Shown here: positions 353 to 62,877 of the stretch, in pieces
Layout: the number at the start of each line of letters is the position of its first letter
How positions within the stretch are numbered: the stretch's first letter is position 1
Virus record (IMG/VR): IMGVR_UViG_3300031417_000379
Source: a virus
Lineage: Duplodnaviria; Heunggongvirae; Uroviricota; Caudoviricetes
DNA length: 64,000 nucleotides
Strand: one strand, 5' to 3'
The notes under the pieces: generated by a model
What the model was told of the DNA's origin: nothing
Seen by the model: only the letters and a program-made list of their open reading frames with translations
Databases searched by the model: none
Position numbers and translations under genes: made by a program

Positions 353-1111
353 TTAGTTCGTTAAGAAATCTCGCACGATGTCACGCGATACGCGATCCAA
401 AATAGCTTTTTCAAGATCTCCGAGTTCAGCGTAGAAATCACCTTCGGGCCCTTTGATCTTTCGAGCGTAGGCTTCAGTATCGTCAAAGTCTTCAACGCCA
501 AACGGCTTACTGCCGTTCCCGTACTCTCTACGAATAGAAGCCAGATTGGTTACACCGGTGACATCGAGATACTCGTCTTCGCCAAGCTTGATAGCCACGT
601 GGCCTTGCCAGTATTTTGAGCTTGTATCGTGCGTAAACATCGTTACTGGGAGTCCAGTCTTTTCACGAAGAGCGTAGGCTAGATAGCCGCAAGCGCCGTG
701 CGTAAAGACGTTCATTGTCTCAGGCGAGTTGTAGTCGAAAGTGGCGTCCATGTTGTGGGTAAAACGAGTGTAGACCGGGGTGCTTGGGCCGATCGGCCCC
801 ATACGTTCGATCTCTTTATTCGTGTAGCCGTTCTTCAGCTGACGTTTGACCATAGCTGTTTCTTTGACAGTTAGAGGATACACGTCGTTCGGGATAGGCG
901 AGTAAACAGCCTGGATATCCTTCGGCATCTTCTTCGGCTTAGACATAACGGTCGGCACAACTTCAGCCGCCATTGCTGTTTCGTAAAGCTGCCGAGCTTC
1001 TTCCTTCGTGGCACCGTGCGGCGCTGTCTCGCCGTAGCGACAGTTTCCAGGCTGGGCTGTACATTTGTTGACACGGCCGGTTTCCGGATTGATGTGATAG
1101 CGCTCAGTCAC
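353..1111 (-). CDS. HCCH-module protein (N-terminal YHINPETG..C..GNC..H motif), C-terminal domain of unknown function
   Basis: 252-aa ORF; N-terminus MTERYHINPETGRVNKCTAQPGNCRYGETAPHG matches the H-C-C-H module shared with 5 other ORFs in this window. Confidence 0.8.
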   Translation of the reverse strand: MTERYHINPETGRVNKCTAQPGNCRYGETAPHGATKEEARQLYETAMAAEVVPTVMSKPKKMPKDIQAVYSPIPNDVYPLTVKETAMVKRQLKNGYTNKEIERMGPIGPSTPVYTRFTHNMDATFDYNSPETMNVFTHGACGYLAYALREKTGLPVTMFTHDTSSKYWQGHVAIKLGEDEYLDVTGVTNLASIRREYGNGSKPFGVEDFDDTEAYARKIKGPEGDFYAELGDLEKAILDRVSRDIVRDFLTN

Positions 1112-1301
1112 TTGGTCTCCTAAAGCTCATGAGGCTTTCTAAACGCTGTAGCTGGGGCGCTAACGGTGAGCGTAAGCGTTTCATACGACCTGACGAGCAT
1201 AAGCTATACCACTGTGAGAAAGCTGAGTAGCGTCTGGCTCAAGTTCTTACACCTCTGGGCCGCAAGAATTGCTCCTGCGGCCCAGAAAGATAGAGCTAGT
1301 G

Positions 1302-2387
1302 TTACTTCGTGGCAGGGATCACCACGGAGTTGTTGCCGCTCCAGCAGGAGAAGCCTGCAGGCAGCTTGTAGTTCGACGAGATAGCGTCAGCTACAGAGTC
1401 AAAGCACTTGGAAACAAGCACGTTCGGATCGTTGCTAACAGAGTCGGAGAGGGTCTTGTTCGCGTTGGCCTGAGCCTTGGCGGTCTCCTCCTTCTGCATG
1501 GCGATACGAGTTTCACCGATGGCAGCGATGTAGTTGTCCAGCTTCTTCTGTGTGTTCGGCGCGAGCTTCAGGTTGGAGAACGTTACGGACTCGATGTTCG
1601 CCAGCCCTCCGGTCGCCTTAAGTCGAGCCTGCATGTCCTCGGTCATGTCCTTGGAAACAGCGTCGTAGTCGGGCGAGAAGGAGACGGTCTGGCCAGTGTT
1701 AGTGCCCTCTACCTTCTTAAGCTCAGCAATCGGATTGTAATCCTTCAGCGCCTTCTGAACAGCCGCCTCAAGCTGAGTAGAGACAACAGCACTGCGGAAC
1801 GTCTGCGTCGGATCGTTCGAGCGGTAGTTCTCGTAGATCTTAGCACCCGATTCCGCGTTGATGCTCCAGCGGTTAGTGATGGTTGCGTGAGCCACGCTAC
1901 CATCACCGATACGGACCGGAATAGTGTACTGAGCGTTGTACTCGTCAGTCTGGATTGTTCCGTCGATCGAAACGATCTCGGCCCACGGTGCCTTAAAGTT
2001 CAAACCGGAGTGGCGAGTGTTCTGATCAACAGCACCGAAGGAGACCACAACGCCAACGTTCTTCGCAGAAACGGTGGTGAAACACATGCTCACAGCGATG
2101 ATGAAACCGATGGCTGAGAGCAAGATACCGCCGTAGAACATACCGAGGTTAGCACTCTTAGAGTACTTCGGGCGCTGAGCGTCCGGCGCTGGGGAGTTGT
2201 AGGAGTTCGAGTCGTCGTTTCCGAAGATAGCGCCACGGATGCCGCTCTTTCCGTGGTTACCTCCGGAGGCTGCAGTCGCGGCAGAAGTCGAACCTGCAAC
2301 CTTACTCTTACTCGGGCGCTTCCGAATAACGACGACACCTCCGACCAACATAGCCAGAGCGATGATGAAGCCGAGGATGTGTACCAT
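1302..2387 (-). CDS. SPFH/band-7 (HflK/HflC-like) membrane protein
   Basis: N-terminal TM helix after a basic/Gly-rich segment, then VGVVVSFGAV...GLNFKAPWAEIV resembling the start of SPFH domains (HflK: GLHFKIPFI). Confidence 0.6.
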   Translation of the reverse strand: MVHILGFIIALAMLVGGVVVIRKRPSKSKVAGSTSAATAASGGNHGKSGIRGAIFGNDDSNSYNSPAPDAQRPKYSKSANLGMFYGGILLSAIGFIIAVSMCFTTVSAKNVGVVVSFGAVDQNTRHSGLNFKAPWAEIVSIDGTIQTDEYNAQYTIPVRIGDGSVAHATITNRWSINAESGAKIYENYRSNDPTQTFRSAVVSTQLEAAVQKALKDYNPIAELKKVEGTNTGQTVSFSPDYDAVSKDMTEDMQARLKATGGLANIESVTFSNLKLAPNTQKKLDNYIAAIGETRIAMQKEETAKAQANANKTLSDSVSNDPNVLVSKCFDSVADAISSNYKLPAGFSCWSGNNSVVIPATK

Positions 2388-2444
2388 AACAACCTTTCAA
2401 GTTGAATTAGGCACATCTTACAAGGCTACGCGTTCATAGTCAAA

Positions 2445-2927
2445 CTAGACGCCTTGGACAACTTTAGCTTCCTCTAACGAAAGCCCGGGCCAGATATAAG
2501 GCAGCCCTGGCTTCGTGTCAGCAGCGAATGCCTGTCCGTAGATAGTTGGAGCTTTAGCTGAAAGTACGGAGCGGTGAGTTTCGTGAAGCTTCTCGTCGCC
2601 GATCCAGTTCGGAAACTCATACTCACCAGCTTTATAGGCGCGAAGCTCATCGGCTGTGAAGAGCGCTAACGACTTCTCCCAGCAGGTGTCTTTAAAGCCT
2701 CTTGAGAGCCACTCGTCGACAGTGACCTCCTGATAACGGAGTAGAGCGAGTTCGTACCCCCACCACATACGGGCCGCAGGATGACGTGACCAACCACCGT
2801 GAAGTCCGCCTTGCCCTTTGAAAGCCTTGAGAACCTGGTACGTCTCTACTCGCTGTTTACCGAGTCGCTTGCTGTCGAGGAGCCCTACAGAACGAGCGAA
2901 ATCGGGGTAAGGGAGGAACGTTTGCAT
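2445..2927 (-). CDS. hypothetical protein; weak resemblance to bacterial pyrimidine-dimer DNA glycosylase-like family (tentative)
   Basis: 160-aa ORF; N-terminus MQTFLPYPDF..LLDSKRLGKQRVE..HP has a pattern reminiscent of the MRLWSLHPKYLD..GLVALWRE family; product assignment is low confidence, the CDS itself is likely real. Confidence 0.55.
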   Translation of the reverse strand: MQTFLPYPDFARSVGLLDSKRLGKQRVETYQVLKAFKGQGGLHGGWSRHPAARMWWGYELALLRYQEVTVDEWLSRGFKDTCWEKSLALFTADELRAYKAGEYEFPNWIGDEKLHETHRSVLSAKAPTIYGQAFAADTKPGLPYIWPGLSLEEAKVVQGV

Positions 2928-5017: not shown

Positions 5018-5641
5018 TTAGTCAACACTAGTCACTAGTAAGGTAACCTCAAGGTTTACTAGCCCCTTGCGGAGAGCTGTAAGAGTAGCCTCTACCTCAC
5101 GCTCCTTGAGATTGTGATTCTCATAGTACTCGAAGGTGTCGATCAAGCGCTCACCATAGGCGATGTAGTTGTCTAGCCAGATCTCCGGTGGGTTTGGAGT
5201 AGTCAGAATCTTGAAAGCTTGAAATGAAAGCATCTCTTCCAGCAGTCGCCCGGAGCGGCAAGACTCCCCGTTAAAAGGGATTGGTTTTGTGACGCTTAAG
5301 AAACTTTCGACAGCCTTCATGACTGGAGTGTAGTGTTCCCAGCGTACCAACACACCTGGAAGTTCGGCGGCTAACTTTTCTTTCAGTGCTGCAGCATCGT
5401 GAATATCCAACGCGCTAATAGCGCAATCCTCTAGATCAGCAGCAAAGCTGGGAAGCGCTCTTAAGATCTCTATGATGCGATTCTCATCTTTGAACATCAC
5501 ATAAGGGTCTTGCTCCCAAAACTTCATGAGCTCTTGATTAGCTTCGGTGAGAGTATTGCGATGAGCAACAGTGGCCACCGGATGCTGCAGCGTGTAGTCG
5601 ATGAGATCCATCGTTTGGCGAGATCTGCTCTTGTACTTCAA
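5018..5641 (-). CDS. tandem-array protein A (~200-aa predicted all-helical, unknown function)
   Basis: Last of 12 consecutive similar-sized ORFs; its stop region overlaps the next gene's start (translational coupling). Confidence 0.8.
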   Translation of the reverse strand: MKYKSRSRQTMDLIDYTLQHPVATVAHRNTLTEANQELMKFWEQDPYVMFKDENRIIEILRALPSFAADLEDCAISALDIHDAAALKEKLAAELPGVLVRWEHYTPVMKAVESFLSVTKPIPFNGESCRSGRLLEEMLSFQAFKILTTPNPPEIWLDNYIAYGERLIDTFEYYENHNLKEREVEATLTALRKGLVNLEVTLLVTSVD

Positions 5642-6261
5642 ATTGAAAGCTCCACCCGCATGGCAATCTCGAACTTATCGAGGTAGCTAAGAGTTCTTGC
5701 AAGTTCTTCAGAATAGGCTTCAGGCCAATCTGCAGTTACGGCGGTCTTGAAAAGCTGGAACGACTCATCAAAGGCTTTCACTAACTTTTCACCGTCTTCG
5801 ATAGTTACGTTTTCCCCGTAGAGGAAGTCATAAATCTCATCGTAATGGCTCCAAAGTTGATCCGTTCCTTCTTCATCACCATCATCATCGAACAACGCTT
5901 GAAGCGCCATGGCTGCATCGAAAGCTAGGTCACGAAGAGCTGTGTGACTTCCGAAACGCTTGAGAACCTCGTCACGGCGTGTGCGTACGTAGGCTACATA
6001 CTTAGAGTACTCTTTAGCAAACTTCGGTTGCGCTTTAGCTCGTTCTTCATACTGGAGCATGAGGGGCTCGATAGTCTTTAGAGCCGGCTCGTACTTAGAC
6101 AACGGAGTATCAAAGAACACAACGCTATCCGCCGCCTGTTTGAGAGTTTGAAACTCGCTTAAGCTCTTGATGAAATCATCTGCGTTGTCCAATAGCTCGA
6201 AGAAGAGATACGATGCACTTTCTCCAGCTCTAAGTAGAGCTGCTGCGTACTGCATCTTCAT
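5638..6261 (-). CDS. tandem-array protein B (~200-aa helical, unknown function)
   Basis: 207 aa; 4-nt overlaps with both flanking array genes. Confidence 0.8.
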   Translation of the reverse strand: MKMQYAAALLRAGESASYLFFELLDNADDFIKSLSEFQTLKQAADSVVFFDTPLSKYEPALKTIEPLMLQYEERAKAQPKFAKEYSKYVAYVRTRRDEVLKRFGSHTALRDLAFDAAMALQALFDDDGDEEGTDQLWSHYDEIYDFLYGENVTIEDGEKLVKAFDESFQLFKTAVTADWPEAYSEELARTLSYLDKFEIAMRVELSI

Positions 6262-6860
6262 TACGATGTCACACCCTTAACTGTTTCGATTTCGGCTAGT
6301 ATGAGCAACGACTCAAGTCGATTGAGCATGTTGATCAGTTGATCGTAGTCCGAAGCCATTAGTGAGCGAGTCCGAGCTTCACTCTCTAGATAGCTCCGCG
6401 CGAGGTCTTCTCCACGCTCAACAAGAGCGTGTACCTTTGAGAGATCAAGTTCTCGTGATGAGAGCAAATCGCCGGCGAGCAAAAGCGTTTCGTTACGTCG
6501 ATTCTCCCCAGCCAGATAGCTCATCTGATAACGTCTACAAAAGGCTGTAAACTCATCGATCACATTACGAAGAGGATCAGGTCTTACTCTCAACATCACG
6601 ATAGAGAGTTGTGCTTCGAGTTCCTTCATCGCGCCGAGCGGGAAACGAGTGTTAAGTCTCTCGCGCACATCCTTCTGAAGAAGCTCGAGCAGACGGTCAC
6701 GCACCCGAGGTTCCATAAGCATGCTGTAGAACGCTCCAGGCGAAACAAAGCTTCTAACCTCTTCGCTAAGGTAATCGATCACAGCGTAGTAGCGGTCTTC
6801 GAGGATCTCTACTTCCTCGCCAAACGGCTTGTAGCTATTGACGATGCGATGACTCATCAA
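6261..6860 (-). CDS. tandem-array protein C
   Basis: 199 aa; coupled start/stop overlaps. Confidence 0.8.
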   Translation of the reverse strand: MMSHRIVNSYKPFGEEVEILEDRYYAVIDYLSEEVRSFVSPGAFYSMLMEPRVRDRLLELLQKDVRERLNTRFPLGAMKELEAQLSIVMLRVRPDPLRNVIDEFTAFCRRYQMSYLAGENRRNETLLLAGDLLSSRELDLSKVHALVERGEDLARSYLESEARTRSLMASDYDQLINMLNRLESLLILAEIETVKGVTS

Positions 6861-7486
6861 TTTACCTCTTCAAGTAAGTACAGCACACGAAGCCTGTCAA
6901 GCCGGCGTTCTGCAGAAGCTATACGCTCTGGAGATTTTGTAGCGTCACATTGCGTAAGGAAAGCTTCAATCAGCTGTGTAAGCTTATGCTCCTCATCCTC
7001 GTGAAGTCGAAGCTGACGCTGTACCCAAACAGAGTACTCTACGATGTCAGAAAAAGCGTTGGCAGCTCGAGCGCCGATAAACGCGCCATCCCCAGATGTC
7101 TGAAGAGGAAGAAGTTGGCGAAGCTCCGCCAGCGTTTCGGAAAGTTGTGTCTTGAACTGCACCATGTGCTCAAAGCGCGGAGTGAGCTCATTAATTTGAT
7201 CAGCGATGGATTTGTAGTGCTCTACAAGCTTTCTAGCCGCCAAGGGTACACCCTCACCGTAAAAGTCGATCCCCTGGCTCTCAATGAGCTGTCGTATAGT
7301 CGGTCTTACCTGGCCTAGAAGCTTGAGTACCGAGCTGTCTGTTACCTTAGTTCGAGCGTAGCTAAAGAGCTCGATGCTAAGTGACTCCGCCTTGCTAGCG
7401 TTCTGGCATTCCTGACTAAAGTTGTGGAGCTCTTGGCTTAGACTCTGCAGAGCGCTATAGCGAGAGTATGGATCCCTACGCATCAA
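6857..7486 (-). CDS. tandem-array protein D
   Basis: 209 aa; coupled. Confidence 0.8.
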   Translation of the reverse strand: MMRRDPYSRYSALQSLSQELHNFSQECQNASKAESLSIELFSYARTKVTDSSVLKLLGQVRPTIRQLIESQGIDFYGEGVPLAARKLVEHYKSIADQINELTPRFEHMVQFKTQLSETLAELRQLLPLQTSGDGAFIGARAANAFSDIVEYSVWVQRQLRLHEDEEHKLTQLIEAFLTQCDATKSPERIASAERRLDRLRVLYLLEEVN

Positions 7487-8096
7487 CTACCTCCAGTATC
7501 ATAAGTTGAGCTTCGATGTGATCGAAAGCTGAGTGGAAGGTTTCAAGCACCTGGCGATGTGATCCGTTGCCGTGGTTAGTCACGAGCTCATCCAGCTCGT
7601 TAATAGTCTCGAGAAGTCGTTCAAAGTGAATCTCGCTTGCCGTCCGGGCTCCCCAGATTGGAGTGAGTTCTCGTCGCATATCGCTGAAGATAACGTCAAG
7701 CCGATCACTAAAGACGTAGCTTGTAGGCGGAATCACGCCCGACCCGAGATTGGTCCAGAGCTGGTCCACCGCGTAGCCCAACGGGTCCTTAAGTAGAACG
7801 AGCGCTCCCCAGCGAGCCTCGATGAAATCAAACTCATCAAGAAGCTCGTGAACGCTCTCGACGAACTGAGCGTCCTCTTTGCGCTTGCGGCTTTGAGAAT
7901 AAAACTGAAGTGCTTCACGCAGCTGTTCAAAAGTCAGCAAGAAACTGTGAGCATCACCGATGTGGTTATACTTTCGGAGTGCCTCGAGCTCAACGCTGAG
8001 CTTTGGGACTGTGCTGCTCACAACAGCGTTCACCTCTACGAGGAACGTGTCCGTAGCCTTTTCACGGCTAAGTAAGCTCTTGCTATACCACTTCAC
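7476..8096 (-). CDS. tandem-array protein E
   Basis: 206 aa; 31-bp gap to the upstream member. Confidence 0.8.
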   Translation of the reverse strand: MKWYSKSLLSREKATDTFLVEVNAVVSSTVPKLSVELEALRKYNHIGDAHSFLLTFEQLREALQFYSQSRKRKEDAQFVESVHELLDEFDFIEARWGALVLLKDPLGYAVDQLWTNLGSGVIPPTSYVFSDRLDVIFSDMRRELTPIWGARTASEIHFERLLETINELDELVTNHGNGSHRQVLETFHSAFDHIEAQLMILEVVDA

Positions 8097-8127
8097 TTAT
8101 TCATAGTACGCCTGAGCTAGCCGTCTG

Positions 8128-8733
8128 TCAATAGAGCCCGACCATCATGGCCTCGACCTCGAGCTTCTGTATAGAGTCAAGATGTTCATCACGAAGACTT
8201 GTGTGGAGGGTCGGAGCTTGAACCTGATCGTGGATCGTGTAGTTCAAATTGATGAAGTCTCTTAAAAGTCCCTCGTCTATCTCGCGAGCTTTCAGAAGCT
8301 CAAGCGCGCAGTCCTCCAGATCTTCGTAAAGCGCACGTCTTTCCGGCGGAAGCGCCTCCGCAGTGCGGAGAAAATCAGCGCTTAGAGCTAGCATCGCCTG
8401 GCGTCCAGCTATTTCGATGTAAAGCTTAAGCTTCGGGTTGTAGTACCAGCGCGCTAATACGTCCTCGCACTGCTTTAGAATTGGGCGTGCTATCTTCGTG
8501 TACTCCTGCGCTCGCAGAGGTGAATCTTTTACCATGCGTCCGGAGTAAGAGGCTTCACGAGTGAACTGCTCGAACAGTTCTAGGAATTCACTGTGCTCGC
8601 TATCACTGTCGTTGAATAACTTGCCAGATTCAATGAGAAAGGTGTCAACTAGGGAGTATACTCTGGGCGGCATTGCTGTACGCTTAAGTTTCTGAGCCGC
8701 GGCCATAGCTGCGGTTGCTCGTGTTTGGATCAT
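8128..8733 (-). CDS. tandem-array protein F
   Basis: 201 aa; coupled. Confidence 0.8.
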   Translation of the reverse strand: MIQTRATAAMAAAQKLKRTAMPPRVYSLVDTFLIESGKLFNDSDSEHSEFLELFEQFTREASYSGRMVKDSPLRAQEYTKIARPILKQCEDVLARWYYNPKLKLYIEIAGRQAMLALSADFLRTAEALPPERRALYEDLEDCALELLKAREIDEGLLRDFINLNYTIHDQVQAPTLHTSLRDEHLDSIQKLEVEAMMVGLY

Positions 8734-9347
8734 GTTTGAGCTTCCTCTTGTTCAGCGTAGAGATCGGAAAGGACCGAAGCGACCTCAAAGTTTTCGAGCA
8801 GCTTATCAAGCTTTTTAGCTAAGTCCGACGGATAAATCGAGTCCTCAGCTTCATGCTTGATCGCGCGGAGAAGCACAAGCGTTCGCTCTGCTGAGACCCC
8901 AAGAGAGTCAGTTCGTAGACTCCAATAGGCGGTTGACTCGAAGTCTTGATGATAGACTGTGATAGCCTGTCTGCTCACTTGAAACTGTCTTAGCAGATCT
9001 TCGAGCGCCGTCACCACTGTTTCAACGGCCTGTCGGTACTCTGGGGGCTTACTCACTCGAGTGAGCAGCATTTCAAGCTGATCTCGGTATTCGTAAGCAG
9101 GGAAGTAGCTGTAGCTTTGGGCGTCCTCGAGCCACTCTCTATCGCTACTGAGAACAGCTATGAGATCGCGCATCATGGTGATGAGCTCAGCCTCTTTTTT
9201 GGGCAAGCTCGACTTATTCTCCCTGTAGCTTGAGAGTGCGCGCTTTGCTAAAAACTCGATATCGAGATGAGTAAAGGCCCGAGCGTCTCGAGAGATACTC
9301 GTCAACACGTTTGCCACTTCCTCGTCAAGACTCCTATAGTAGAGCAT
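8730..9347 (-). CDS. tandem-array protein G (start chosen at internal ATG 9345-9347 with gaggag RBS; longest ORF extends to 9440)
   Basis: The longest ORF would overlap upstream gene H by ~100 nt; the internal Met preceded by GAGGAG gives a 205-aa product and a 14-nt overlap. Confidence 0.7.
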   Translation of the reverse strand: MLYYRSLDEEVANVLTSISRDARAFTHLDIEFLAKRALSSYRENKSSLPKKEAELITMMRDLIAVLSSDREWLEDAQSYSYFPAYEYRDQLEMLLTRVSKPPEYRQAVETVVTALEDLLRQFQVSRQAITVYHQDFESTAYWSLRTDSLGVSAERTLVLLRAIKHEAEDSIYPSDLAKKLDKLLENFEVASVLSDLYAEQEEAQT

Positions 9348-9903
9348 CGATACTCTCCTCACGCTTACTAGCGTAAAACTCTGGATAGTAGCCAATTCTG
9401 GTGACGAGCTTTTGAGCTTCGATAATAGCTTTATAGACATTGAGGCTATTGATCTGAGAAAGACGATTCGAGTTAAATAGGTCCAATGTTAAGTAGTAAG
9501 TGGACGCGAACGCGCTCAGCAATTTTAGCTCATCCAGGTTAAGCGAAGAACTCCTCGTTTCAAGCTCCTCTACCACGGAATAAAGTAGGTTGAGCATCGC
9601 TTCAACTTCTTTGCGAACATCTTCTTGCTTTCCCCAGTAATTCCAGAGCTTGACAGCTTCATCAAAACGATCGCTAGCAATAGCCGAACCTTGTGGCTTG
9701 AGAGCTAGAGTCTTGAAGTGCTTCTTGAGCACCGCTAGATGCATCTGGATAAGCTCACTTTGAGCGATTGGATCGCTGCTGAGATAACCTTTCAGAACGG
9801 TTGCAGAGTAGTACGCATCGTTTGATAGCTCTTTGCTACCGTCGCCACAAATCACCTCATTTAAGAAGCGTAGAGTCAACGTCCTTCTATCGCGGTAGAT
9901 CAT
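9334..9903 (-). CDS. tandem-array protein H
   Basis: 189 aa; coupled to I. Confidence 0.75.
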   Translation of the reverse strand: MIYRDRRTLTLRFLNEVICGDGSKELSNDAYYSATVLKGYLSSDPIAQSELIQMHLAVLKKHFKTLALKPQGSAIASDRFDEAVKLWNYWGKQEDVRKEVEAMLNLLYSVVEELETRSSSLNLDELKLLSAFASTYYLTLDLFNSNRLSQINSLNVYKAIIEAQKLVTRIGYYPEFYASKREESIDALL

Positions 9904-11103: not shown

Positions 11104-11267
11104 TAAGGTCTCCTCTAAGCTTTTGCCGATCTTATCATGAGAAAGTTAGGTTGGCAATCGGTAACAAACGCTCTAGATGACAGTTTAAGCGTTTGTAAAG
11201 CTAGGATGACAGGTTGTACGGCTCTTCGCCAATCTACTGTTAGCGACTGATCTCGTCACTTAGAAGC
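11104..11267. promoter_or_regulatory. 164-bp intergenic region inside the array with a 9-bp inverted repeat and gatgacag direct repeats
   Basis: acaaacgct(11164-11172)/agcgtttgt(11188-11196) inverted repeat; gatgacag at 11176-11183 and 11205-11212; the only sizeable gap in the 12-gene array, so a candidate internal promoter/operator. Confidence 0.35.
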
Positions 11268-26428: not shown

Positions 26429-26434
26429 CTAGTA

Positions 26435-53594: not shown

Positions 53595-53918
53595 CTATCG
53601 CTCTATCGGGAGCCAGGTAAGCACCTCGATACGCTCGTCGAGATCTCCGAACGGAAGCTCCTCCACCGCTAATTTGAAGACCGGAGCGTGCTTCTTCCAA
53701 ATCTCGTGCCAGGTGACGTAGTACTCTACCGGCTCCCATTCCCCACTCTCTTTTAACTGGCGGTGGAACCAAACGCCATCACGCTCTTGCAGGAGAATCG
53801 TGTGTGGTGTCCTGTAGCGCTGTACAGACATGAGAAGCTCTCCCCCGATGGGAGCTTCGGACGGACCGATCTCCTCAGAGTTTTCAAGCATGAGCTTTTC
53901 GATAACAGCGCTATCCAT
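53595..53918 (-). CDS. hypothetical protein
   Basis: 107-aa ORF; its start codon at 53918 overlaps the stop of the upstream nucleotidyltransferase gene by 1 nt. Confidence 0.6.
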   Translation of the reverse strand: MDSAVIEKLMLENSEEIGPSEAPIGGELLMSVQRYRTPHTILLQERDGVWFHRQLKESGEWEPVEYYVTWHEIWKKHAPVFKLAVEELPFGDLDERIEVLTWLPIER

Positions 53919-54733
53919 CAGTCAACCTCTTTAGCAAGCTCCGTCACAAAGTCGTAGACGTTGTTGACATCCTTATAGCGCCGGTTAAGCACCGGCAGTT
54001 GACGGTAGAAAGCTTCACGCTCCTCATCAGTAAACTCAGGTCGAACACGCTCTTCACGCTGGAAACGATTAGCCAGGATCTCATTACGCAGCGCAGTCTT
54101 CAAGAACTTCATAGCCCGAGGTGAATCATCGCCTCGCTTTTCTGCGCCGTCAGCGAACTTTGAGCTAAGAGAGTGGAGTCTAGTGAGATACTCATACTCG
54201 TTGAAACGAAGATCCGCTAGATACGGCGCCCATTCCTCTTCGTCGCCGGAGAGGTTAAATCCTCGAGAATGATAGGTGTCCACGTTGAAGTGGATTCCTT
54301 TCATGTACTCCTCAGCAAAGACGTAGACTGAAGAGACCCGAACATCTCTGACCTCACCGACCTGAGCAAAGTCCTTGCTAGCCTTACGATCAGTGATGAG
54401 AAAGAGATCGTTGTCACTATCTGGATGATCCAGATTGTAGCTTACGGAGCCGAACTGTGCATGACCAACAAGCTCGCCCTTCAGGATACGCTTGTGAGGA
54501 TTCTCAGTTCGAAGATTCGAGAGAACCTCTAGCACTTCATCGGTAGTAGCAGGGACAATACCAGACTTAGCCGGAGCGAACGAACGCTTAAGAGCTTTCT
54601 GTTCAAAACGTTCAGCATAGGCAGCCTCTGCTTCGCCGAGCGTCTTGTGGTGTTCACCAGCTGCATAAGGGCAGTTACGGATTGACGCTGTACAAGGCTT
54701 TGGACCGTCGTCTGTAAGATGGTACATCAGCAA
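53918..54733 (-). CDS. HCCH module fused to Pol-beta-superfamily nucleotidyltransferase domain
   Basis: N-terminal YHLTDDGPKPCTASIRNCPYAAGEHH module; NTase signature GSVSYNLDHPDSDNDLFLI (GS-x9-D-x-D). Confidence 0.7.
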   Translation of the reverse strand: MLMYHLTDDGPKPCTASIRNCPYAAGEHHKTLGEAEAAYAERFEQKALKRSFAPAKSGIVPATTDEVLEVLSNLRTENPHKRILKGELVGHAQFGSVSYNLDHPDSDNDLFLITDRKASKDFAQVGEVRDVRVSSVYVFAEEYMKGIHFNVDTYHSRGFNLSGDEEEWAPYLADLRFNEYEYLTRLHSLSSKFADGAEKRGDDSPRAMKFLKTALRNEILANRFQREERVRPEFTDEEREAFYRQLPVLNRRYKDVNNVYDFVTELAKEVD

Positions 54734-55785: not shown

Positions 55786-56748
55786 TCACTTAAAGGTGTA
55801 GATTGGCATACTGCGATCCGGAATCTCACCGAACGCCTCGCCGTCCACCTCGGTCTTAAGGCCGCCGACCATAGTCCAGCTGGAGCCTAATCTCGTTAGT
55901 GACTGGTCGTGCTGGAAAGCTGTAGTGGAGCCGATTGTATGCACATCGTCACCGCCGGTAGCCACAAGCTTGTATGCGTCGCGTCCAGTGTCAGTCTTAC
56001 CTTTCCAGACTTCTAAAGTAGCGACGTGTTCGTTGCCCTGGCGATCTTTGTAGTTCCACATTGTAAGGCCGTTAGACGAGTTCGCCATGTCCTTATGCGG
56101 GTTACCTCGTTTAGCGATCGGCAGGATCGAGTACGGACTATAGTAGTCAAAGGAAGTGGTGTGCGTCTGAGAAAGCTGACCGGTCTTTGAAGCATCAAGC
56201 TGACTGTTCGCGGGGAAGCCGGCTTTGCGGTTAGCAGCTTCTCGAACAGCCTTAGTGTCAACAGCTGGAGCAGCGGCAACCGGCGCAGCTACGATGTTCT
56301 CTGGGTTGTTGTAAGCCGTGTTGTAGTCCTCCACACTCATAAGCTCTTCACCAGAGTCTTTTACACGCTTCCAGGCGCCGCGGCCGTTGCGGAGGTCTGA
56401 TGGAGTGCCGCTTGTTTTAGCAGCCTTCCCGTTCTTAAAGACCTCCATTCCGCGAAGATCGTGGATGATAGCGATCTTGCCCTGCGTGTGAACGAAGACC
56501 TCATCATACTTCTCGATGCGACTACGGTAAAGCTCGATGTCAGGCCATGCGCCGCGAGCAGCTCGACCGTCCCCCTTTTGCTTTGAAACAGGAGCGTGAG
56601 CCTTAGTCGCCATGCTGTTTTCGTAGCTACTACGAGCAGCCTCGGCTGAAGTGAAGTGGTCGTCAGTGGAGCCGAACGGGCACTTACCTTTCTGGGCGCT
56701 ACAAGCCCCAGCTTCACCGGTGGCCGGGTTAACGTGGAACAAAGCCAT
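55786..56748 (-). CDS. HCCH-module protein (N-terminal), C-terminal domain unknown
   Basis: MALFHVNPATGEAGACSAQKGKCPFGSTDDHFTSAEAARSSYE module. Confidence 0.8.
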   Translation of the reverse strand: MALFHVNPATGEAGACSAQKGKCPFGSTDDHFTSAEAARSSYENSMATKAHAPVSKQKGDGRAARGAWPDIELYRSRIEKYDEVFVHTQGKIAIIHDLRGMEVFKNGKAAKTSGTPSDLRNGRGAWKRVKDSGEELMSVEDYNTAYNNPENIVAAPVAAAPAVDTKAVREAANRKAGFPANSQLDASKTGQLSQTHTTSFDYYSPYSILPIAKRGNPHKDMANSSNGLTMWNYKDRQGNEHVATLEVWKGKTDTGRDAYKLVATGGDDVHTIGSTTAFQHDQSLTRLGSSWTMVGGLKTEVDGEAFGEIPDRSMPIYTFK

Positions 56749-56785: not shown

Positions 56786-57997
56786 TTAGTCACTCGAATC
56801 TGTCTGACCTGTAAGCTCGCCGGTGACCGGGTTGAACGATGCACCTGCGTTGTACTGATTAGCTTTGCCGAGGAAGAAGATGTCGTCGTTCGTTAGTCCA
56901 TACTTGCGAACACGCTCCATGTCGAAAACCTGCGTTCTCTCACTGTATGCTCTTCCAAGCTGAGCAGATTTACCGGCCTTTACGATCTCGCCGAACTCAG
57001 ACGGACCAAGCTTCTCCTTTAGCTTTGCCATACGGATGGCCGGTGACTTCGGTAGCTTATCCTCGATACGTTTACGAAGGATGCTAGAGGAGCTGGGATT
57101 CGCGTAAACGCGCTCAAGCTGTAGATCTTGATCAACGAGAGCAGTGAGTGTCGCCTCTCGAGTGCGAGTATCACTAGCGATCCAGTACTGGAGACGCTCG
57201 TGGTTACGCTTGAGAGCAACGATTCCGAGTTTTGTAATGTCGCCGCTGGTGAGCCTGTGCGGAAGTCCGGTGGTGGCGAAGTAGCTGAGGTACTTCTCCG
57301 GAGCGTTCGCGAGCATGGCTTCAGTAAGCTTCCCACTCGTAAGCGCTGTCTCAGGCTTGAGAGGATGAGTAGCCCAGTTGTTATCCTCGAGCCAGGTCTG
57401 TAAACGCTGCGAGGTGATGTGGTTGTCTTGGCTTAAGACACGAGCGAAATCACTCTTTGCATAACGATCAAGTCGTTTACTGCTGTTGACTTGATCAAAG
57501 TGAGCGTCGGTTAGATGCGGGCTGTTGACCACGCGCCCTATCGGAGTGCTTGAGTCTTTAAGCTTTGACCAGCTTAGGAAGTTATTCGGTACCGAAAGAA
57601 GAACCTCTTCAAGATCCTCAGGAGTCATCGATTGATTAGGTTCGCCGCCGGCGACGAGAATAGCGGCTCGCACCTTCGGCGATGTGGCCCGTGCTAACGC
57701 CTTAGCTGCCTGAGCAGGAGTCAGATTCGGGTTCTTAGCCACGTTCCCGAGAGTTCTTTCTGACCCCTGTTCGATGGCAGCGTTGATGATCCCTGGATCA
57801 TCGGTAGTCTTGGACTGAGCGTTGAGCTCTTTGAGAGGGAGCTTCGCGAAGACCTGTGAGCCCTGCTTTTCCTCAAAAGCCGCACGAGCAGCTTCCGACG
57901 AAGTGTAGTGTTCGTTCTCACCACCGAACGGGCAGTTGCCCTTGGTAGCTGAACACTTGCCGGCGTCACCGGTCTCAGGATTAACGTGATAGCGCAT
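56786..57997 (-). CDS. HCCH-module protein (N-terminal), C-terminal domain unknown
   Basis: MRYHVNPETGDAGKCSATKGNCPFGGENEHYTSSEAARAAFE module. Confidence 0.8.
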   Translation of the reverse strand: MRYHVNPETGDAGKCSATKGNCPFGGENEHYTSSEAARAAFEEKQGSQVFAKLPLKELNAQSKTTDDPGIINAAIEQGSERTLGNVAKNPNLTPAQAAKALARATSPKVRAAILVAGGEPNQSMTPEDLEEVLLSVPNNFLSWSKLKDSSTPIGRVVNSPHLTDAHFDQVNSSKRLDRYAKSDFARVLSQDNHITSQRLQTWLEDNNWATHPLKPETALTSGKLTEAMLANAPEKYLSYFATTGLPHRLTSGDITKLGIVALKRNHERLQYWIASDTRTREATLTALVDQDLQLERVYANPSSSSILRKRIEDKLPKSPAIRMAKLKEKLGPSEFGEIVKAGKSAQLGRAYSERTQVFDMERVRKYGLTNDDIFFLGKANQYNAGASFNPVTGELTGQTDSSD

Positions 57998-60149: not shown

Positions 60150-60584
60150 CTAGTCTGCAAAGACAAAGTCGAGATGAAGCCCCTTATCGCCGATGGCGTA
60201 AGGCTTCTCAATGATGATTGCGCCTTGATCCTCGTAGACACGACGAGAGCTTTCCTTGCTAGCGCCGTAGAGAGGGTAGACGTTACGGTCCTTAGCAAAG
60301 TTCACAATGGCTTTAAGGAACTCATCACTTTTACCGCTTCCACGGTGGATCGGATCAATAGCCATCGCCCTTAGTCTCCAGTTGATGTTGTCAGCTCCAA
60401 CTTTCTTCATGTCAGGGACGATGCTCGCGATACCAGCAACTCGGTCATCGTGGACCCAGATAATGTGCTTGGCAGCGTCGGATGTGTCGCCGGTGTAGAG
60501 AGGAGCGTCGTCTGAAAAGCCGAGCCAACGACGACGGTACAGTTGTACCTCGCTGAGTTCGACGGAGAACAGGGCCATAGTCAT
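60150..60584 (-). CDS. GNAT-family N-acetyltransferase
   Basis: Motif A-like RLRAMAIDPIHRGSGKSDEFLKAIVNFA. Confidence 0.7.
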   Translation of the reverse strand: MTMALFSVELSEVQLYRRRWLGFSDDAPLYTGDTSDAAKHIIWVHDDRVAGIASIVPDMKKVGADNINWRLRAMAIDPIHRGSGKSDEFLKAIVNFAKDRNVYPLYGASKESSRRVYEDQGAIIIEKPYAIGDKGLHLDFVFAD

Positions 60585-60627
60585 GGGTCCTATATCAACT
60601 AGCTTTCAGGTATGTTACCATGGCGTT

Positions 60628-60999
60628 ATGACTCACTACCCAGTCGTTCTCATCGATGACCTTCGCTCATTCGTGCAGAAGCGAGACGATGCTCTTGTCC
60701 TGCGTACGCTTGCTGAGGCTCTCTCCTGGTTCACCGATGTGAAGTCCGAGGACACCGTTGGCCAGCTTTGGCTCGACCACGACCTCGGCAAGAACGACAA
60801 GGGCGAAATCATCGAGATCATCCCCTTCGTGGCGGAGCTCGAAGAGCGCGCCTACTTCGGTACTGCGCCGGAGATCGAGCAGGTCATCGTGCACTCGTCG
60901 AACAACCAGCGTGGTCCGAAGATGGTGGTTCCGCTTTCTCGTTACTTCGCGGTGCAGACCATTGCGCAGTCTGAGCTGGACAACTACCTGGTTCAGTAG
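60628..60999 (+). CDS. CPR-like (cyclic-phosphate processing receiver) domain protein (tentative)
   Basis: VVLIDDLRSF...QLWLDHDLGKNDKGE matches the hhLDDxR ... LDHDLG signature of CPR domains; start taken at ATG 60628 because the longer ORF overlaps the divergent GNAT start. Confidence 0.5.
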   Translation: MTHYPVVLIDDLRSFVQKRDDALVLRTLAEALSWFTDVKSEDTVGQLWLDHDLGKNDKGEIIEIIPFVAELEERAYFGTAPEIEQVIVHSSNNQRGPKMVVPLSRYFAVQTIAQSELDNYLVQ

Positions 61000-61060: not shown

Positions 61061-61795
61061 TTACGCAGTCTTACGAGCATCCAGTCGTCGCTCAAGCTCC
61101 GCCATAAAAGTGTGATAGCGATCTGCGTTCTCGAGCTTCTCTCGGATGTATTCTAGCCGACGCCCTACGCTAGAAGCGATGGTCTCTAGCATCTCATCGA
61201 TCGACGTAATCTCTCCGATGTTAGCCTGGTCGTACCTCGAAAGTGTCTGATCATTCTCATAATAGCTCTTTGGGAACACTTCGAAGCGTTGAAGCGTCTC
61301 AAGCTGCGCTTCAGCATCCTCCGGGGTAAAAGCTTGCTGTACGAAATTCGGAAGCTCGTCATACTTTGCGTTGTATTCGTTCACCTGATCGATCCTGTCA
61401 AGCATGGCTCGATAGGCCTTAAGGGCGTCCACCACATCCTTGACAATGAGCCCGCGATTGGACTTGGAAAGCCGTTCATCGTGCTCGAAGACAGCCTTAG
61501 CCACCAGACGAAGCTCAGACGGCGTCCAGCTTCTAGGCTCCTTAGTGAGCACCGGAAGAAGTTCCTCAGCTGATTCAGCCTCATCCTGAAGCTCAAGCTC
61601 TTTAGCAAAATCGATGTTGTAGAACCCGTGCATCGGTCCGGCTTCGAACATCTCATCGATAAACACGTCTACATCGTCACGCGGTGCCCGAGGAACACCG
61701 AAGCGCTCAAGCTTTCGAGCAAGGCTATCGTAAGCACTTCGGGCGTAAACAGCCTCTTCAGTAGCCTCGTAGCGCTTCGAGTAAAGCTCGTTCAT
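61061..61795 (-). CDS. hypothetical protein
   Basis: 244-aa ORF. Confidence 0.7.
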   Translation of the reverse strand: MNELYSKRYEATEEAVYARSAYDSLARKLERFGVPRAPRDDVDVFIDEMFEAGPMHGFYNIDFAKELELQDEAESAEELLPVLTKEPRSWTPSELRLVAKAVFEHDERLSKSNRGLIVKDVVDALKAYRAMLDRIDQVNEYNAKYDELPNFVQQAFTPEDAEAQLETLQRFEVFPKSYYENDQTLSRYDQANIGEITSIDEMLETIASSVGRRLEYIREKLENADRYHTFMAELERRLDARKTA

Positions 61796-62121
61796 AAAGC
61801 TGTTGATGTACTCGAGCGACTTCTGCTTCTCCAGCCCGGTATAGCTTCGGTACTCAAGACTCCGTACGAAGAAAGCGATCTGCTGCTCAAGCGCTTCGTT
61901 CTTCGAGATGTAGCTGAAACCGTACGAGCCGAAATCAAGCTTCTTCGCCAGGTTCTTCGTGAGGGTAAACCCCGGAGCGCCATACTTATCGAAGAACGAA
62001 CTTCGCGCCGTCTCGAGTGATTCATAGTGTATTCGCTATCTCCAAAGAGACAGCTGTCCGGCACTTCGCAAGAGTCGATTTTGCCGGTGAGACTGTTGAC
62101 ATGAAAACTAGCCATGTACAC
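61792..62121 (-). CDS. short HCCH-module protein (degenerate module)
   Basis: SFHVNSLTGKIDSCEVPDSCLFGDSEY...H keeps the H-C-C spacing; 109 aa. Confidence 0.55.
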   Translation of the reverse strand: MYMASFHVNSLTGKIDSCEVPDSCLFGDSEYTMNHSRRREVRSSISMALRGLPSRRTWRRSLISARTVSATSRRTKRLSSRSLSSYGVLSTEAIPGWRSRSRSSTSTAL

Positions 62122-62151
62122 AACTGTACATGGCTAGTCCTCAAACGTCAA

Positions 62152-62877
62152 TCAGCTGTTAAGCGAAGCCTGCGCCGCTTCCTTCGAGGTGAAGTGCGCA
62201 TCCTCGTGAGCTACCTTGCAGCTATCAGCACCGTTAGCACAGCGTCTAACAGCGTTAGCATCCGTAGTCACGTGGTACTGACCGGTACGCTTAAGCTGCT
62301 GTCTACGGGCTCTACGTGCTGCTACCGCCTCCTGGTACTTCACGAACGAGGCGTCAGCCTGCTCTTCGACTTTGCGAGCATCATCAACCTGAGCACGAGC
62401 TGCCTCAACAGCCTTCTCTGCGGCTTTGACTGCATCCTGCTTTACACGAAGCTCCTGAACGCTAGCCTGAAGCTCCTTATTGCGAACTTCAAGCTGGCCC
62501 TTCTTCTTTGCCATCTTGTGCTTCGCTACCTCGTGACGGATAAGCTTCGCGAAGTCTCGATCGGAGAAAGAGAGGATACGTCGATCAAGTGTGAAGTTAG
62601 AGAACTGGATACTGTTCTCACCGAGCTTCTCCACCTTCGGCGACCAGGACTGGAGGAACTTACCGAGATCGCCGAGGAACTCGTAGTGCTCAGCACGGAG
62701 GTAGTGAGTACCGAACTTCTTCTTAAGGACACTGTTGCCGACGTAGTTCAGGTGCTGAAGCCGGCGCGTGATGATGCGATCGGTAGCCTCATTCAGCTTC
62801 TCCTGCTCAAGCTTCATGCGTGCCTCAAACTCCTCACGAGCAGCGGCCAGGTTGTTGTAGTTAAGCTTTGCGTTCAT
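62152..62877 (-). CDS. coiled-coil protein with C-terminal HCCH module
   Basis: C-terminus YHVTTDANAVRRCANGADSCKVAHEDAHFTSKEAAQASL carries the same module found at N-termini elsewhere. Confidence 0.75.
   Translation of the reverse strand: MNAKLNYNNLAAAREEFEARMKLEQEKLNEATDRIITRRLQHLNYVGNSVLKKKFGTHYLRAEHYEFLGDLGKFLQSWSPKVEKLGENSIQFSNFTLDRRILSFSDRDFAKLIRHEVAKHKMAKKKGQLEVRNKELQASVQELRVKQDAVKAAEKAVEAARAQVDDARKVEEQADASFVKYQEAVAARRARRQQLKRTGQYHVTTDANAVRRCANGADSCKVAHEDAHFTSKEAAQASLNS

What the first reader, a model, noticed from the sequence alone, without database searches (positions are those of the whole stretch)
353..62877. Repeated ~40-aa H-C-C-H (putative zinc-binding) module on six different proteins
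Six ORFs carry the same short module with consensus [YF]H[VIL]NPxTGxxGxC[ST]AxxGxC[PR][FY]Gxxxx H[FY]xSxxEAxxA[YF]E. They are at 353..1111, 53918..54733, 55786..56748, 56786..57997, 61792..62121 and the C-terminus of 62152..62877. His, Cys, Cys and His residues sit at conserved spacings. The module is N-terminal in five proteins and C-terminal in one, each fused to a different partner domain (including a nucleotidyltransferase). This suggests an autonomous targeting or binding domain, for example for nucleic acid or a host protein. Five of the six cluster within 9 kb.
Basis: seen in the sequence. Interest (0 to 1): 0.8.

Follow-up and report, generated by a model that had tools for sequence, protein, structure and literature searches.

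The report
Undescribed His-Cys-Cys-His header domain family
Six genes in this window share a ~45-residue, probably zinc-binding module that no domain library describes, and the same module heads dozens of unrelated enzymes in giant (0.3-0.8 Mb) uncultivated mobile elements, so it looks like a portable handle whose target is still unknown.

Summary
A profile built only from non-window sequences finds exactly six copies in the six-frame translation (E 1e-24 to 4e-6; the next hit has E>1). His, Cys, Cys and His are invariant, usually spaced H-x10-C-x6-C-x7-H.

One correction is needed. ORF 61792..62121 is not a separate protein. It is the 5' part of a ~351-aa gene broken by a 1-nt deletion, and a close relative carries that gene intact.

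No Pfam, NCBIfam, PHROG or PDB-sequence entry covers the module. An exhaustive HMM search nevertheless finds 4,942 50%-identity clusters.

AlphaFold gives a beta-hairpin, a loop and a helix (pLDDT 83). No solved fold matches it significantly, and it is neither a zinc ribbon nor a treble clef.

The window is a fragment of a clade of giant elements, on contigs of up to 828 kb. Their module genes form arrays of up to 11 per 20 kb. In 201 of 210 genes the module is N-terminal. It is fused to DNA and RNA ligases, PNKP-like kinases, nucleases, nucleotidyltransferases, ADP-ribosyltransferases, GNATs and many unknown domains.

Best reading: an autonomous, zinc-stabilised "header" that links diverse early or counter-defence effectors to one shared ligand. 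Neither zinc binding nor the ligand has been shown.

The parts
965..1111 (-). HCCH module copy 1. It forms the N-terminus of the 252-aa protein 353..1111, whose partner is a weakly YunG-like domain.
   Evidence: HMM E=5.8e-20. Sequence: RYHINPETGRVNKCTAQPGNCRYGETAPHGATKEEARQLYE. The same partner family recurs behind the module in other elements.
54593..54733 (-). HCCH module copy 2 (diverged). It forms the N-terminus of the 271-aa protein 53918..54733, whose partner is a probable Pol-beta-type nucleotidyltransferase.
   Evidence: HMM E=4e-6. The nucleotidyltransferase hits are weak, but a G-S-x11-D-x-D motif is readable.
56608..56748 (-). HCCH module copy 3. It forms the N-terminus of the 320-aa protein 55786..56748, whose partner has no annotation.
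   Evidence: HMM E=1.6e-24. No Pfam, PHROG or PDB-sequence hit for the partner.
57860..57997 (-). HCCH module copy 4. It forms the N-terminus of the 403-aa protein 56786..57997, whose partner is an all-alpha solenoid followed by a small beta domain.
   Evidence: HMM E=1.7e-24. AlphaFold models of the module alone (pLDDT 83.2) and of the full length (pLDDT 86.6). This partner family recurs in P0008, P0028, P0052 and P0085.
61061..62115 (-). Frameshifted gene carrying HCCH module copy 5. The module lies at about 61976..62115. One base is missing between 62032 and 62031.
   Evidence: Three-frame translation. Alignment to the intact 351-aa orthologue L026:5880-6932. Intact relatives with the same partner: P0057, P0116 and P0142.
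62155..62289 (-). HCCH module copy 6 (diverged). It forms the C-terminus of the 241-aa, largely coiled-coil protein 62152..62877.
   Evidence: HMM E=7.6e-7. The orthologue in L026 is 83% identical.

Best explanation
**Shown**
- The six copies belong to a large protein-domain family that has no annotation. The domain is about 45 residues long: a beta-hairpin, a ligand-bearing loop and one alpha-helix.
- Four residues are invariant, typically spaced H-x10-C-x6-C-x7-H. The surrounding consensus is [YF]H[IV]NPxTGxxGxCxAxxGxCPFGxxxxH[YF]xSxEEARxAYE.
- The domain is portable. It is nearly always the first thing in the protein, ahead of partner domains that are unrelated to each other.
- It is massively expanded in a clade of giant extrachromosomal elements, of which this window is a fragment.

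**Inferred**
- The four invariant residues hold one structural Zn(II).
- The domain works as a common 'header' or handle. It does no chemistry itself. It couples many different element-encoded effectors to one shared ligand, so that they are handled together. These effectors include nucleic-acid repair and end-processing enzymes, ADP-ribosyltransferases, acetyltransferases, kinases and repeat proteins.
- My preferred version: it marks proteins needed immediately on entry into a new cell for co-delivery or co-localisation with the element's DNA. It would do so by docking either to the transfer or packaging machinery or to the transferred nucleic acid itself.
- The ligand has not been identified.
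For: - **Reality and scale.** The independent HMM finds exactly six copies in the window. An exhaustive HMMER scan of 1.84 billion representatives gives 4,942 hits at E<=1e-3 and 1,462 at E<=1e-10, nearly all starting at residues 1-10.
- **Unannotated.** No Pfam, NCBIfam, PHROG or PDB-sequence match, either for the window proteins or for 146+148 homologues.
- **Fold.** pLDDT is 83. The secondary structure is the same alone and in the full-length protein.
- **Metal ligands.** H, C, C and H are invariant in 146 and in 50 sequences. The spacing is 10/6/7 in 90 of 145 and otherwise varies by about one residue.
- **Portability.** 201 of 210 carrier ORFs have it at the N-terminus. Tandem and C-terminal cases exist.
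- **Recognisable partners.** They include NAD-dependent DNA ligase, T4-type RNA ligase, YqaJ, ART-PolyVal and ADPrib_exo_Tox, zeta/AAA_33 kinases, HAD_PNKP, a CCA/poly(A) polymerase head, RNase_T, MvaI/BcnI, GNAT and TelA, plus HD and LPD29.
- **Arrays.** There are 11, 10, 8 and 7 carrier genes in 14-20 kb stretches.
- **Element type.** The window backbone is syntenic with contigs of 309-697 kb. Carrier contigs reach 727-828 kb.
- **Transfer genes in the window.** It encodes a coupling-protein homologue that matches 1,238 plasmids, 1,215 of them conjugative, and no phage. It also encodes a VirB6/TrbL-like protein, a CHAP+transglycosylase hydrolase and a NikA-like protein.
- **Overlap with delivered effectors.** ART-PolyVal, LPD29, zeta-type kinases, Pol-beta nucleotidyltransferases and GNATs are the domains that Iyer et al. 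2017 (PMC5512222) describe in 'polyvalent proteins', which they propose are delivered with invading DNA. That paper also proposes N-terminal 'header' domains (ArdC-N) and MuF fusions for delivery.
- **Charge.** The module's mean net charge is -0.86, and 0 to -5 in the window copies. This argues against a generic polyanion binder.
Against: - Nothing shows metal binding, and no ligand is known.
- Many recognisable partners act on nucleic-acid ends. Tandem modules also exist. Both fit a plain nucleic-acid-binding finger at least as well.
- Housekeeping-type enzymes such as the NAD-dependent DNA ligase need no delivery tag in T4-like phages (own knowledge).
- A single-copy ~180-aa chromosomal form in high-GC Actinomycetota joins the module to a C-terminal membrane anchor. 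A delivery header does not explain that form.
- Module copies within one element are no more alike than copies from different elements (0.45 vs 0.43; window 0.35). There is therefore no sign of co-evolution with an element-specific receptor.
- Known T4SS signals are C-terminal or internal (own knowledge).
- Whether these elements are plasmids, phages or hybrids is unresolved.
Confidence: 0.4

Rival explanations
1. The module is a nucleic-acid-recognition zinc finger for RNA, tRNA, single-stranded DNA, nicks or ends, or a nucleic-acid-like polymer such as poly-ADP-ribose. It localises each fused enzyme onto its substrate inside the cell and plays no part in delivery.
For: - Most partners that can be named work on nucleic-acid termini: DNA ligase, Rnl1, PNKP-like kinase/phosphatase, CCA/poly(A) nucleotidyltransferase, RNase_T, YqaJ and a restriction endonuclease.
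- The window cluster sits among RNA-centred genes: an Rv2179c-like exoribonuclease, cREC_REC, PTH2 and a tRNA.
- Tandem copies exist, two or three per protein.
- There are conserved aromatic residues and a GxCP[FY]G knuckle like the one in TTP-type CCCH fingers. Pfam gives faint hits to zf_CCCH_4 and zf-CCCH_DUS3L in 3 of 50 modules. hhalign matches 9 columns.
- Eukaryotic repair enzymes carry analogous small fingers: GRF, the PARP-type finger on ligase III, and PBZ (own knowledge).
Against: - The module is neutral to acidic, with a mean net charge of -0.86, and several of its conserved residues are Glu.
- Many partners are not obviously nucleic-acid enzymes: alpha-solenoid, TelA, GNAT, SPOR and a membrane anchor.
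- Annotated genes of mobile elements are mostly nucleic-acid enzymes anyway, so the apparent enrichment is weak evidence.
- The CCCH resemblance is limited to 9 columns, with a probability of 32%.
Confidence: 0.3
2. The module is a docking domain for one highly conserved host hub protein, for example RNA polymerase, the ribosome or a chaperone/protease. The element's enzymes would then all be recruited to that hub. The chromosomal membrane-anchored form would be the host's own regulator of the same hub, comparable to an anti-sigma factor.
For: - The sequence is highly conserved across carriers with G+C from 0.27 to 0.62, and there is no element-specific clustering.
- The surface is acidic to neutral.
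- A chromosomal form consists of the cytoplasmic module plus a C-terminal membrane helix.
- A ClpS adaptor gene lies next to module arrays in two giant contigs.
Against: - No partner has been identified.
- The chromosomal gene has no conserved neighbours.
- Most of the conserved residues could be purely structural in so small a metal-dependent fold.
Confidence: 0.15
3. The module is a regulatory or stability element: a redox- or zinc-sensitive switch, a degron, or a folding/solubility cap that controls the amount or activity of the attached protein.
For: - Cys2His2 zinc sites can act as redox switches, as in the ZAS anti-sigma factors and Hsp33 (own knowledge).
- The position at the extreme N-terminus is strict.
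- ClpS genes lie nearby in relatives.
Against: - The module is tethered ahead of very different folds, and no conserved interface with the partner is evident.
- C-terminal, tandem and stand-alone forms exist.
Confidence: 0.08
4. The similarity is an artefact: chance, low-complexity composition, or a recently copied DNA repeat.
For: None was found. Three of the six copies are diverged, with E around 1e-6.
Against: - The independent HMM gives E-values down to 1e-24, and nothing else in the window scores below E=1.
- There are thousands of homologues.
- Nucleotide identity between copies is only 53-69%.
- The fold prediction is confident.
Confidence: 0.01

Closest known systems
N-terminal 'header' and carrier domains of delivered effectors in phages and conjugative elements: ArdC-N on polyvalent proteins and MuF fusions (Iyer et al. 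2017, PMC5512222)
   Same: - A common domain at a fixed end of the protein is joined to a changing set of effector domains in invasive elements.
- The partner repertoires overlap: ART-PolyVal, LPD29, zeta-type kinase, Pol-beta nucleotidyltransferase and GNAT.
   Different: - There is no sequence or fold relation.
- Here each protein carries one effector behind a 45-residue module, rather than 2-15 domains in one polypeptide with processing peptidases.
- Delivery is only inferred.
Small zinc fingers appended to eukaryotic nucleic-acid repair enzymes: GRF fingers, the PARP-type finger of DNA ligase III, and PBZ fingers (own knowledge)
   Same: A metal-stabilised module of about 30-50 residues is fused to ligases, kinases/phosphatases and nucleases. 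It acts as a targeting device, not a catalyst.
   Different: - The ligand pattern and spacing differ.
- None of those families is hit by Pfam models.
- The charge is acidic to neutral.
- Binding to nucleic acid has not been tested.
TTP/TIS11-type CCCH zinc fingers
   Same: A shared local knuckle, G-x-C-P-[FY]-G, around the middle cysteine. Pfam CCCH hits are faint.
   Different: - The ligands are H-x10-C-x6-C-x7-H, not C-x8-C-x5-C-x3-H.
- The profile-profile match covers only 9 columns, with a probability of 32%.
- This module has a beta-hairpin and a long C-terminal helix.
Lineage-specific expansion of a zinc ribbon (~35 copies) in the jumbo Bacillus phage G (Iyer et al. 2021, PMC7824862)
   Same: A small metal-binding domain is multiplied to dozens of copies within one giant element.
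   Different: - tblastn of the module against 50,697 phage records found nothing, which argues against a detectable relationship to any phage-encoded domain there. I did not verify that phage G is in that collection.
- That domain is a Cys4 ribbon and is mostly stand-alone. This module heads many different enzymes.
N-terminal trafficking domains of polymorphic toxins (for example LXG)
   Same: A conserved N-terminal domain is joined to a highly variable C-terminal domain, and the genes lie in arrays.
   Different: - Carrier genes abut one another with no room for interleaved immunity genes.
- Many partners are repair enzymes, not toxins.
- The module is much smaller.

Membership tests
Any curated protein family (Pfam-A 2025, NCBIfam 20, PHROGs v4) | A significant match of the module region to a family model | tested here: not met
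   No family covers residues 1-50 in the six window proteins or in 146 and 148 homologues. With module-only queries at E<=10, the most frequent hit is DUF7552, in 6 of 50 with best E=0.027, below cut-off.
   The four ligands are single residues 10, 6 and 7 positions apart, and no CxxC is present.
CCCH (TTP-type) zinc finger | C-x8-C-x5-C-x3-H ligand pattern | tested here: not met
   The observed pattern is H-x10-C-x6-C-x7-H.
CCCH (TTP-type) zinc finger | Profile-level homology | tested here: inconclusive
Pfam zf_CCCH_4 and zf-CCCH_DUS3L hit 3 of 50 modules at E 0.04-0.18.
Structural Zn(II) site | Four invariant Cys/His side chains | tested here: met
   H4, C15, C22 and H30 are invariant in 146 full-length homologues and in 50 module sequences.
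Structural Zn(II) site | Tetrahedral ligand geometry and bound metal | not testable with these tools
   Model coordinates are not returned by the tools, and there are no experimental data.
His-Me finger (HNH-like beta-beta-alpha-metal nuclease) | A beta-beta-alpha-metal fold with a catalytic His at the end of strand 1 and a structural match to HNH-type nucleases | tested here: not met
Polyvalent proteins (Iyer et al. 2017) | Two to fifteen effector domains in one polypeptide, usually with a zincin-like processing peptidase | tested here: not met
   Carrier proteins have a median length of 270 aa and carry one partner. No peptidase domain is listed among the partner families that displays (25 of 32).
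Polymorphic toxin systems | A variable C-terminal toxin followed by a cognate immunity gene | tested here: not met
   Variable C-termini are present. However, carrier genes are back to back or overlapping in arrays (for example L031 4162-12805 and L075), which leaves no room for immunity genes.
Conjugative element (for the window as a whole) | Type IV coupling protein, VirB6-like channel protein and cell-wall hydrolase | tested here: met
   The 858-aa protein at 39103..41679 hits TrwB_AAD_bind and TraG-D_C and 1,215 conjugative plasmids. The 1411-aa protein hits TrbL. The protein at 25055..26428 combines CHAP and transglycosylase domains.
Conjugative element (for the window as a whole) | Relaxase and VirB4-type ATPase | tested here: inconclusive
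   Neither was recognised among the large ORFs scanned; only a NikA-like accessory protein was found. About half of the ~69 ORFs were not scanned, and the element extends beyond the window.

The most novel reading that the evidence does not exclude
The module is a protein 'address label' used by a previously unrecognised clade of giant (0.3-0.8 Mb) phage/plasmid-like elements. Dozens of otherwise unrelated enzymes per element would be sorted by this one zinc-stabilised tag into the transfer channel or particle, and so enter a new host together with the DNA. That would be a modular, tag-based alternative to polyvalent proteins. The nearly invariant A-x-[YF]-E at the end of the helix could then be the site where a maturation protease removes the tag.
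Probability: 0.2. Interest if true: 0.9.

Novelty: new variant of a known kind. Interest (0 to 1): 0.7.

Why it matters
- **A gap in the domain libraries.** A domain with about 5,000 distinct 50%-identity clusters has no entry in Pfam, NCBIfam, PHROGs or the PDB. Defining it would annotate the first 45 residues of thousands of 'hypothetical' proteins.
- **A marker for giant elements.** The domain is a sharp sequence marker for a clade of giant extrachromosomal elements. These are missing from the plasmid and phage reference collections searched here.
- **A list of co-handled proteins.** The module is the single feature shared by dozens of unrelated proteins per element. Finding its ligand would therefore show at once how these elements organise their effector arsenal.
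- **A tractable question.** If the module is a delivery or localisation tag, it is short, portable and testable. It would open the question of how giant elements sort proteins.

Tried and rejected
- **Phage origin.** Megablast of the window against phage and plasmid collections found no match. The window is not an actinophage as first guessed. It carries conjugation-type genes alongside phage-type genes.
- **Module in reference collections.** tblastn of a consensus module and of eight concatenated modules against 50,697 phage and 72,556 plasmid records found no match.
- **Word-indexed homologue search.** With the module profile it returned only 5 hits. The exhaustive scan was needed.
- **P0006.** This was the top hit (1,766 aa, 9 stretches). 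It is a repetitive protein that matches only part of the profile, so I rejected it as a false positive.
- **Heat-shock context.** The chromosomal form in L009 sits beside a MerR/HspR-like gene and an Hsp20 gene. This neighbourhood is not conserved in 24 loci, so I dropped the idea.
- **Amber recoding.** I considered it because of the tRNA with a CTA anticodon. TAG ends 12 of 63 genes with short downstream extensions, so I rejected it for this window.
- **Module versus partner conservation.** Comparison between orthologues gave no consistent difference.
- **CCCH homology.** Only a 9-column match was found.
- **Partner functions by PDB sequence search.** Nothing was found.
- **Coupling protein as a single query in IMG/VR.** It found nothing.
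- **Literature.** Searches for the motif letters and for HCCH, zinc and conjugative terms found no description of this domain. A link to the ~350-kb oral 'Inocle' elements (PMC12340149) was considered but not tested.

Full report
**1. The observation**

ORF listing and a six-frame motif scan place a [YF]H...C...C...H module at all six stated positions, all on the minus strand. An alignment of the six copies has invariant H, C, C and H, plus a Glu and an Ala.

To avoid circularity I built an HMM from 145 homologues found elsewhere and searched every stop-to-stop piece of the window with filters off. Exactly six pieces score, with E-values of 1.6e-24, 1.7e-24, 5.8e-20, 7.6e-7, 4e-6 and 4e-6. The seventh-best has E=1.3.

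The coding segments are only 53-69% identical as DNA, so these are old protein-level paralogous modules and not a repeat. Outside the module the six proteins share nothing detectable by BLAST. Five of the six lie within 8,960 bp.

**2. One correction**

ORF 61792..62121 reads 'MASFHVNSLTGKIDSCEVPDSCLFGDSE' and then turns into Arg/Ser-rich out-of-frame text. The -1 frame continues with 'IHYESLETARSSFFDKYG...', which is the missing half of the module, and runs on into ORF 61061..61795.

A closely related metagenome contig (L026, 74-97% protein identity across window 53.9-63.9 kb) has one intact 351-aa ORF at this place. The window lacks one base between 62032 and 62031. More distant intact relatives with the same partner also exist (P0057, P0116, P0142). 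So there are five intact carrier genes and one frameshifted gene, which is either a pseudogene or an assembly error.

**3. Is the module known?**

- No Pfam, NCBIfam or PHROG model covers it in the window proteins, and no PDB sequence matches the profile.
- Scanning 146 and then 148 homologues against Pfam again shows no family over the module.
- With module-only queries at E<=10, the only recurring hints are DUF7552 (6 of 50, E>=0.027) and CCCH-finger models (3 of 50, E 0.04-0.18). All are below threshold.
- A profile-profile comparison with TTP-type CCCH fingers aligns only the 9-column knuckle GnCPFG / GxCxYG, with a probability of 32%.
- Literature searches found no description.

**4. How big is the family?**

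An exhaustive HMMER scan of 1.84 billion cluster representatives gives 4,942 proteins at E<=1e-3 and 1,462 at E<=1e-10. The listed hits almost all carry the module at residues 1-50 and are 64-540 aa long. The top hit, P0006, is a repetitive false positive.

The consensus is M-x-K-[YF]-H-[IV]-N-P-x-T-G-x-P-G-x-C-x-A-x-x-G-x-C-P-F-G-x4-H-[YF]-x-S-x-E-x-A-R-x-A-Y-E. The four ligands are invariant. The spacing is 10/6/7 in 90 of 145 sequences and otherwise varies by about one residue.

Cluster look-ups show these proteins are almost all metagenome-only, unnamed singletons. tblastn finds the module in none of 50,697 phage or 72,556 plasmid records.

**5. Fold**

- AlphaFold2 on a 50-sequence module alignment gives pLDDT 83.2. 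It predicts strands at 3-5 and 12-14, a long loop bearing both Cys, and a helix at 34-50.
- The same elements appear in a full-length model of the 403-aa protein. There the module precedes a confidently modelled all-alpha solenoid and a small beta domain (pLDDT 86.6).
- Against predicted viral structures, the only good matches are at least 10 different uncharacterised proteins of one metagenomic virus, 'Siphoviridae sp. ctHip2' (TM 0.6-0.8, 22-38% identity). These are homologues.
- Zinc binding is inferred from the four invariant His/Cys residues. I could not inspect coordinates.

**6. What carries it?**

*The window itself.* It is not a typical phage or plasmid.
- Conjugation-type genes: a coupling-protein homologue (39103..41679) that hits 1,238 plasmids, 1,215 of them conjugative, and no phage; a 1,411-aa TrbL/VirB6-like protein; a CHAP+transglycosylase hydrolase; and a NikA-like protein.
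- Phage-type genes: an RIIA-like protein (PHROG E=2.5e-45), a T4 endoV-like glycosylase, ThyX and PhoH-PIN.
- Others: a sigma factor, DnaG, a primase-polymerase and an SNF2 helicase.

*Its relatives.* The backbone at 37.4-53.6 kb is syntenic, at 33-47% protein identity, with loci from contigs of 309, 345 and 697 kb. Module-bearing contigs reach 673-727 kb in one metagenome and 573 and 828 kb elsewhere. Their G+C ranges from 0.27 to 0.62. Relatives carry a 21-tRNA array and a tmRNA.

*The arrays.* Within these elements the module genes form dense same-strand arrays: 11 in 20 kb (L038), 10 in 20 kb (L075), 8 in 14 kb (L031) and 7 in 16.5 kb (L027). At least 17 copies were seen in the 100 kb sampled from one 681-kb contig.

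*The chromosomal form.* Separately, 24 high-GC loci (Aeromicrobium and other Actinomycetota MAGs) hold a single ~180-aa gene in which the module is followed by a charged linker and a C-terminal membrane helix. That gene has no conserved neighbours.

**7. Partners**

Of 210 distinct complete carrier ORFs, 201 have the module at the very N-terminus. The median length is 270 aa. Most partners have no annotation. The ones Pfam recognises are:
- NAD-dependent DNA ligase (3 proteins)
- T4-type RNA ligase (3)
- YqaJ exonuclease (3)
- ART-PolyVal (3) and exotoxin-type ADP-ribosyltransferases (2)
- AAA_33/zeta-type kinases (2)
- PNKP-type HAD phosphatase
- CCA/poly(A) polymerase head domain
- RNase_T
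- an MvaI/BcnI endonuclease
- GNATs
- TelA
- HD, SPOR and LPD29 in the other sample

In the window the partners are a probable Pol-beta nucleotidyltransferase, a weakly YunG-like domain, an alpha-solenoid, a coiled coil and two unknowns. Several of these partner families recur behind the module in other elements. Tandem (two or three copies), C-terminal and stand-alone forms exist.

**8. Mechanism**

*What is shown.* This is a real, autonomous and portable domain with four invariant metal-type ligands. It sits ahead of unrelated folds and is hugely expanded in giant elements.

*What is inferred.* It binds one structural zinc and serves as a shared handle rather than a catalyst.

*Preferred reading (about 0.4).* It is a 'header' that couples early or counter-defence effectors to the element's transfer route or incoming DNA.
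- The partner set overlaps with the polyvalent-protein repertoire that Iyer et al. (PMC5512222) propose is delivered with invading DNA.
- That paper already proposes N-terminal header domains and MuF fusions.
- The window encodes transfer machinery.
- The module is neutral to acidic (mean charge -0.86).

*Nucleic-acid-finger rival (about 0.3).* Many partners are end-processing enzymes, tandem copies exist, there is a CCCH-like knuckle, and the neighbouring genes are RNA-centred: an Rv2179c-like exoribonuclease, cREC_REC, PTH2 and a tRNA.

*Evidence against an element-specific receptor.* Copies within an element are no more alike than copies between elements (0.45 vs 0.43; window 0.35). That points to an invariant ligand, either a universal molecule or a highly conserved hub. 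The membrane-anchored chromosomal form fits a protein-docking role better than a delivery tag.

None of these readings can be settled by computation with the tools available here.

**9. Novelty and verdict**

The kind of thing is familiar: a small metal-stabilised, promiscuously fused module, and a lineage-specific expansion in a giant element. Bacillus phage G has ~35 copies of a zinc ribbon (PMC7824862).

This particular family, its ligand pattern, its strict header position and its scale have no entry in any library searched. It marks a clade of giant elements absent from the phage and plasmid reference collections searched here. I rate it a new variant of a known kind, with interest 0.7.

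Noticed in passing
window 63306..63378 (-) and 62903..63223 (-): A tRNA with anticodon CTA, which would read the amber stop codon (ARAGORN labels it tRNA-Pyl), lies next to a PTH2-type peptidyl-tRNA hydrolase (Pfam E=8e-7). The same tRNA is conserved in relatives L026 and L034. TAG still ends 12 of 63 window genes, so there is no sign of recoding here.
   Followed up: partly
window 5018..12572 (-): Twelve consecutive same-strand ORFs of 189-236 aa. Only one pair is detectably similar by BLAST. Seven of the twelve are found, at 43-71% identity, in relative L051. This may be a rapidly diverging paralogue array of unknown function.
   Followed up: partly
window 25055..41679 and 2445..2927, 47129..50909: Conjugation-type genes sit in one co-oriented block with phage-type genes. 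The conjugation-type genes are a coupling-protein homologue, a 1,411-aa VirB6/TrbL-like protein, a CHAP+transglycosylase hydrolase and a NikA-like protein. The phage-type genes are an RIIA-like protein, a T4 endoV-like glycosylase, ThyX and PhoH-PIN. Relatives are contigs of 0.3-0.83 Mb, some listed as viral in IMG/VR. Whether the element is a plasmid, a phage or a hybrid is unresolved.
   Followed up: partly
window 62031/62032 (gene 61061..62115, -): A single-base deletion, relative to the intact orthologue in L026, splits a 351-aa module-bearing gene into two ORFs. It is either a real pseudogene or an assembly/sequencing error.
   Followed up: yes
L025 1..18540; L062 5017..5375: A 309-kb relative carries 21 tRNA genes within 18.5 kb, interleaved with module genes. 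A 697-kb relative encodes a tmRNA.
   Followed up: no
window 60583..60999 (+): A cREC_REC (cyclic-phosphate-processing receiver) gene is the only plus-strand gene inside the module cluster. Its neighbours are a GNAT and an Rv2179c-like exoribonuclease, which gives the region an RNA-repair or NAD/ADP-ribose flavour.
   Followed up: no
L103 5017..5349 and 8112..8579; L105 5659..5997 and 7450..7908: In 828-kb and 573-kb contigs the module arrays sit just downstream of conserved ClpS and Macro-domain genes, together with HAD and metallophosphatase genes. The metallophosphatase-like gene is also conserved in the window (52749..53561).
   Followed up: no
module helix end, e.g. window 57872..57880 (A-F-E of copy 4): The nearly invariant A-x-[YF]-E at the end of the module helix matches the S/A/G-X-E cleavage motif of phiKZ-type prohead proteases (own knowledge). 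It could equally be purely structural. Untested.
   Followed up: no
L006-L016, L068-L097 (high-GC loci): Actinomycetota chromosomes (Aeromicrobium and relatives) hold a conserved single-copy ~180-aa protein. It consists of the module, a charged linker and a C-terminal membrane helix, and it sits in variable neighbourhoods.
   Followed up: partly
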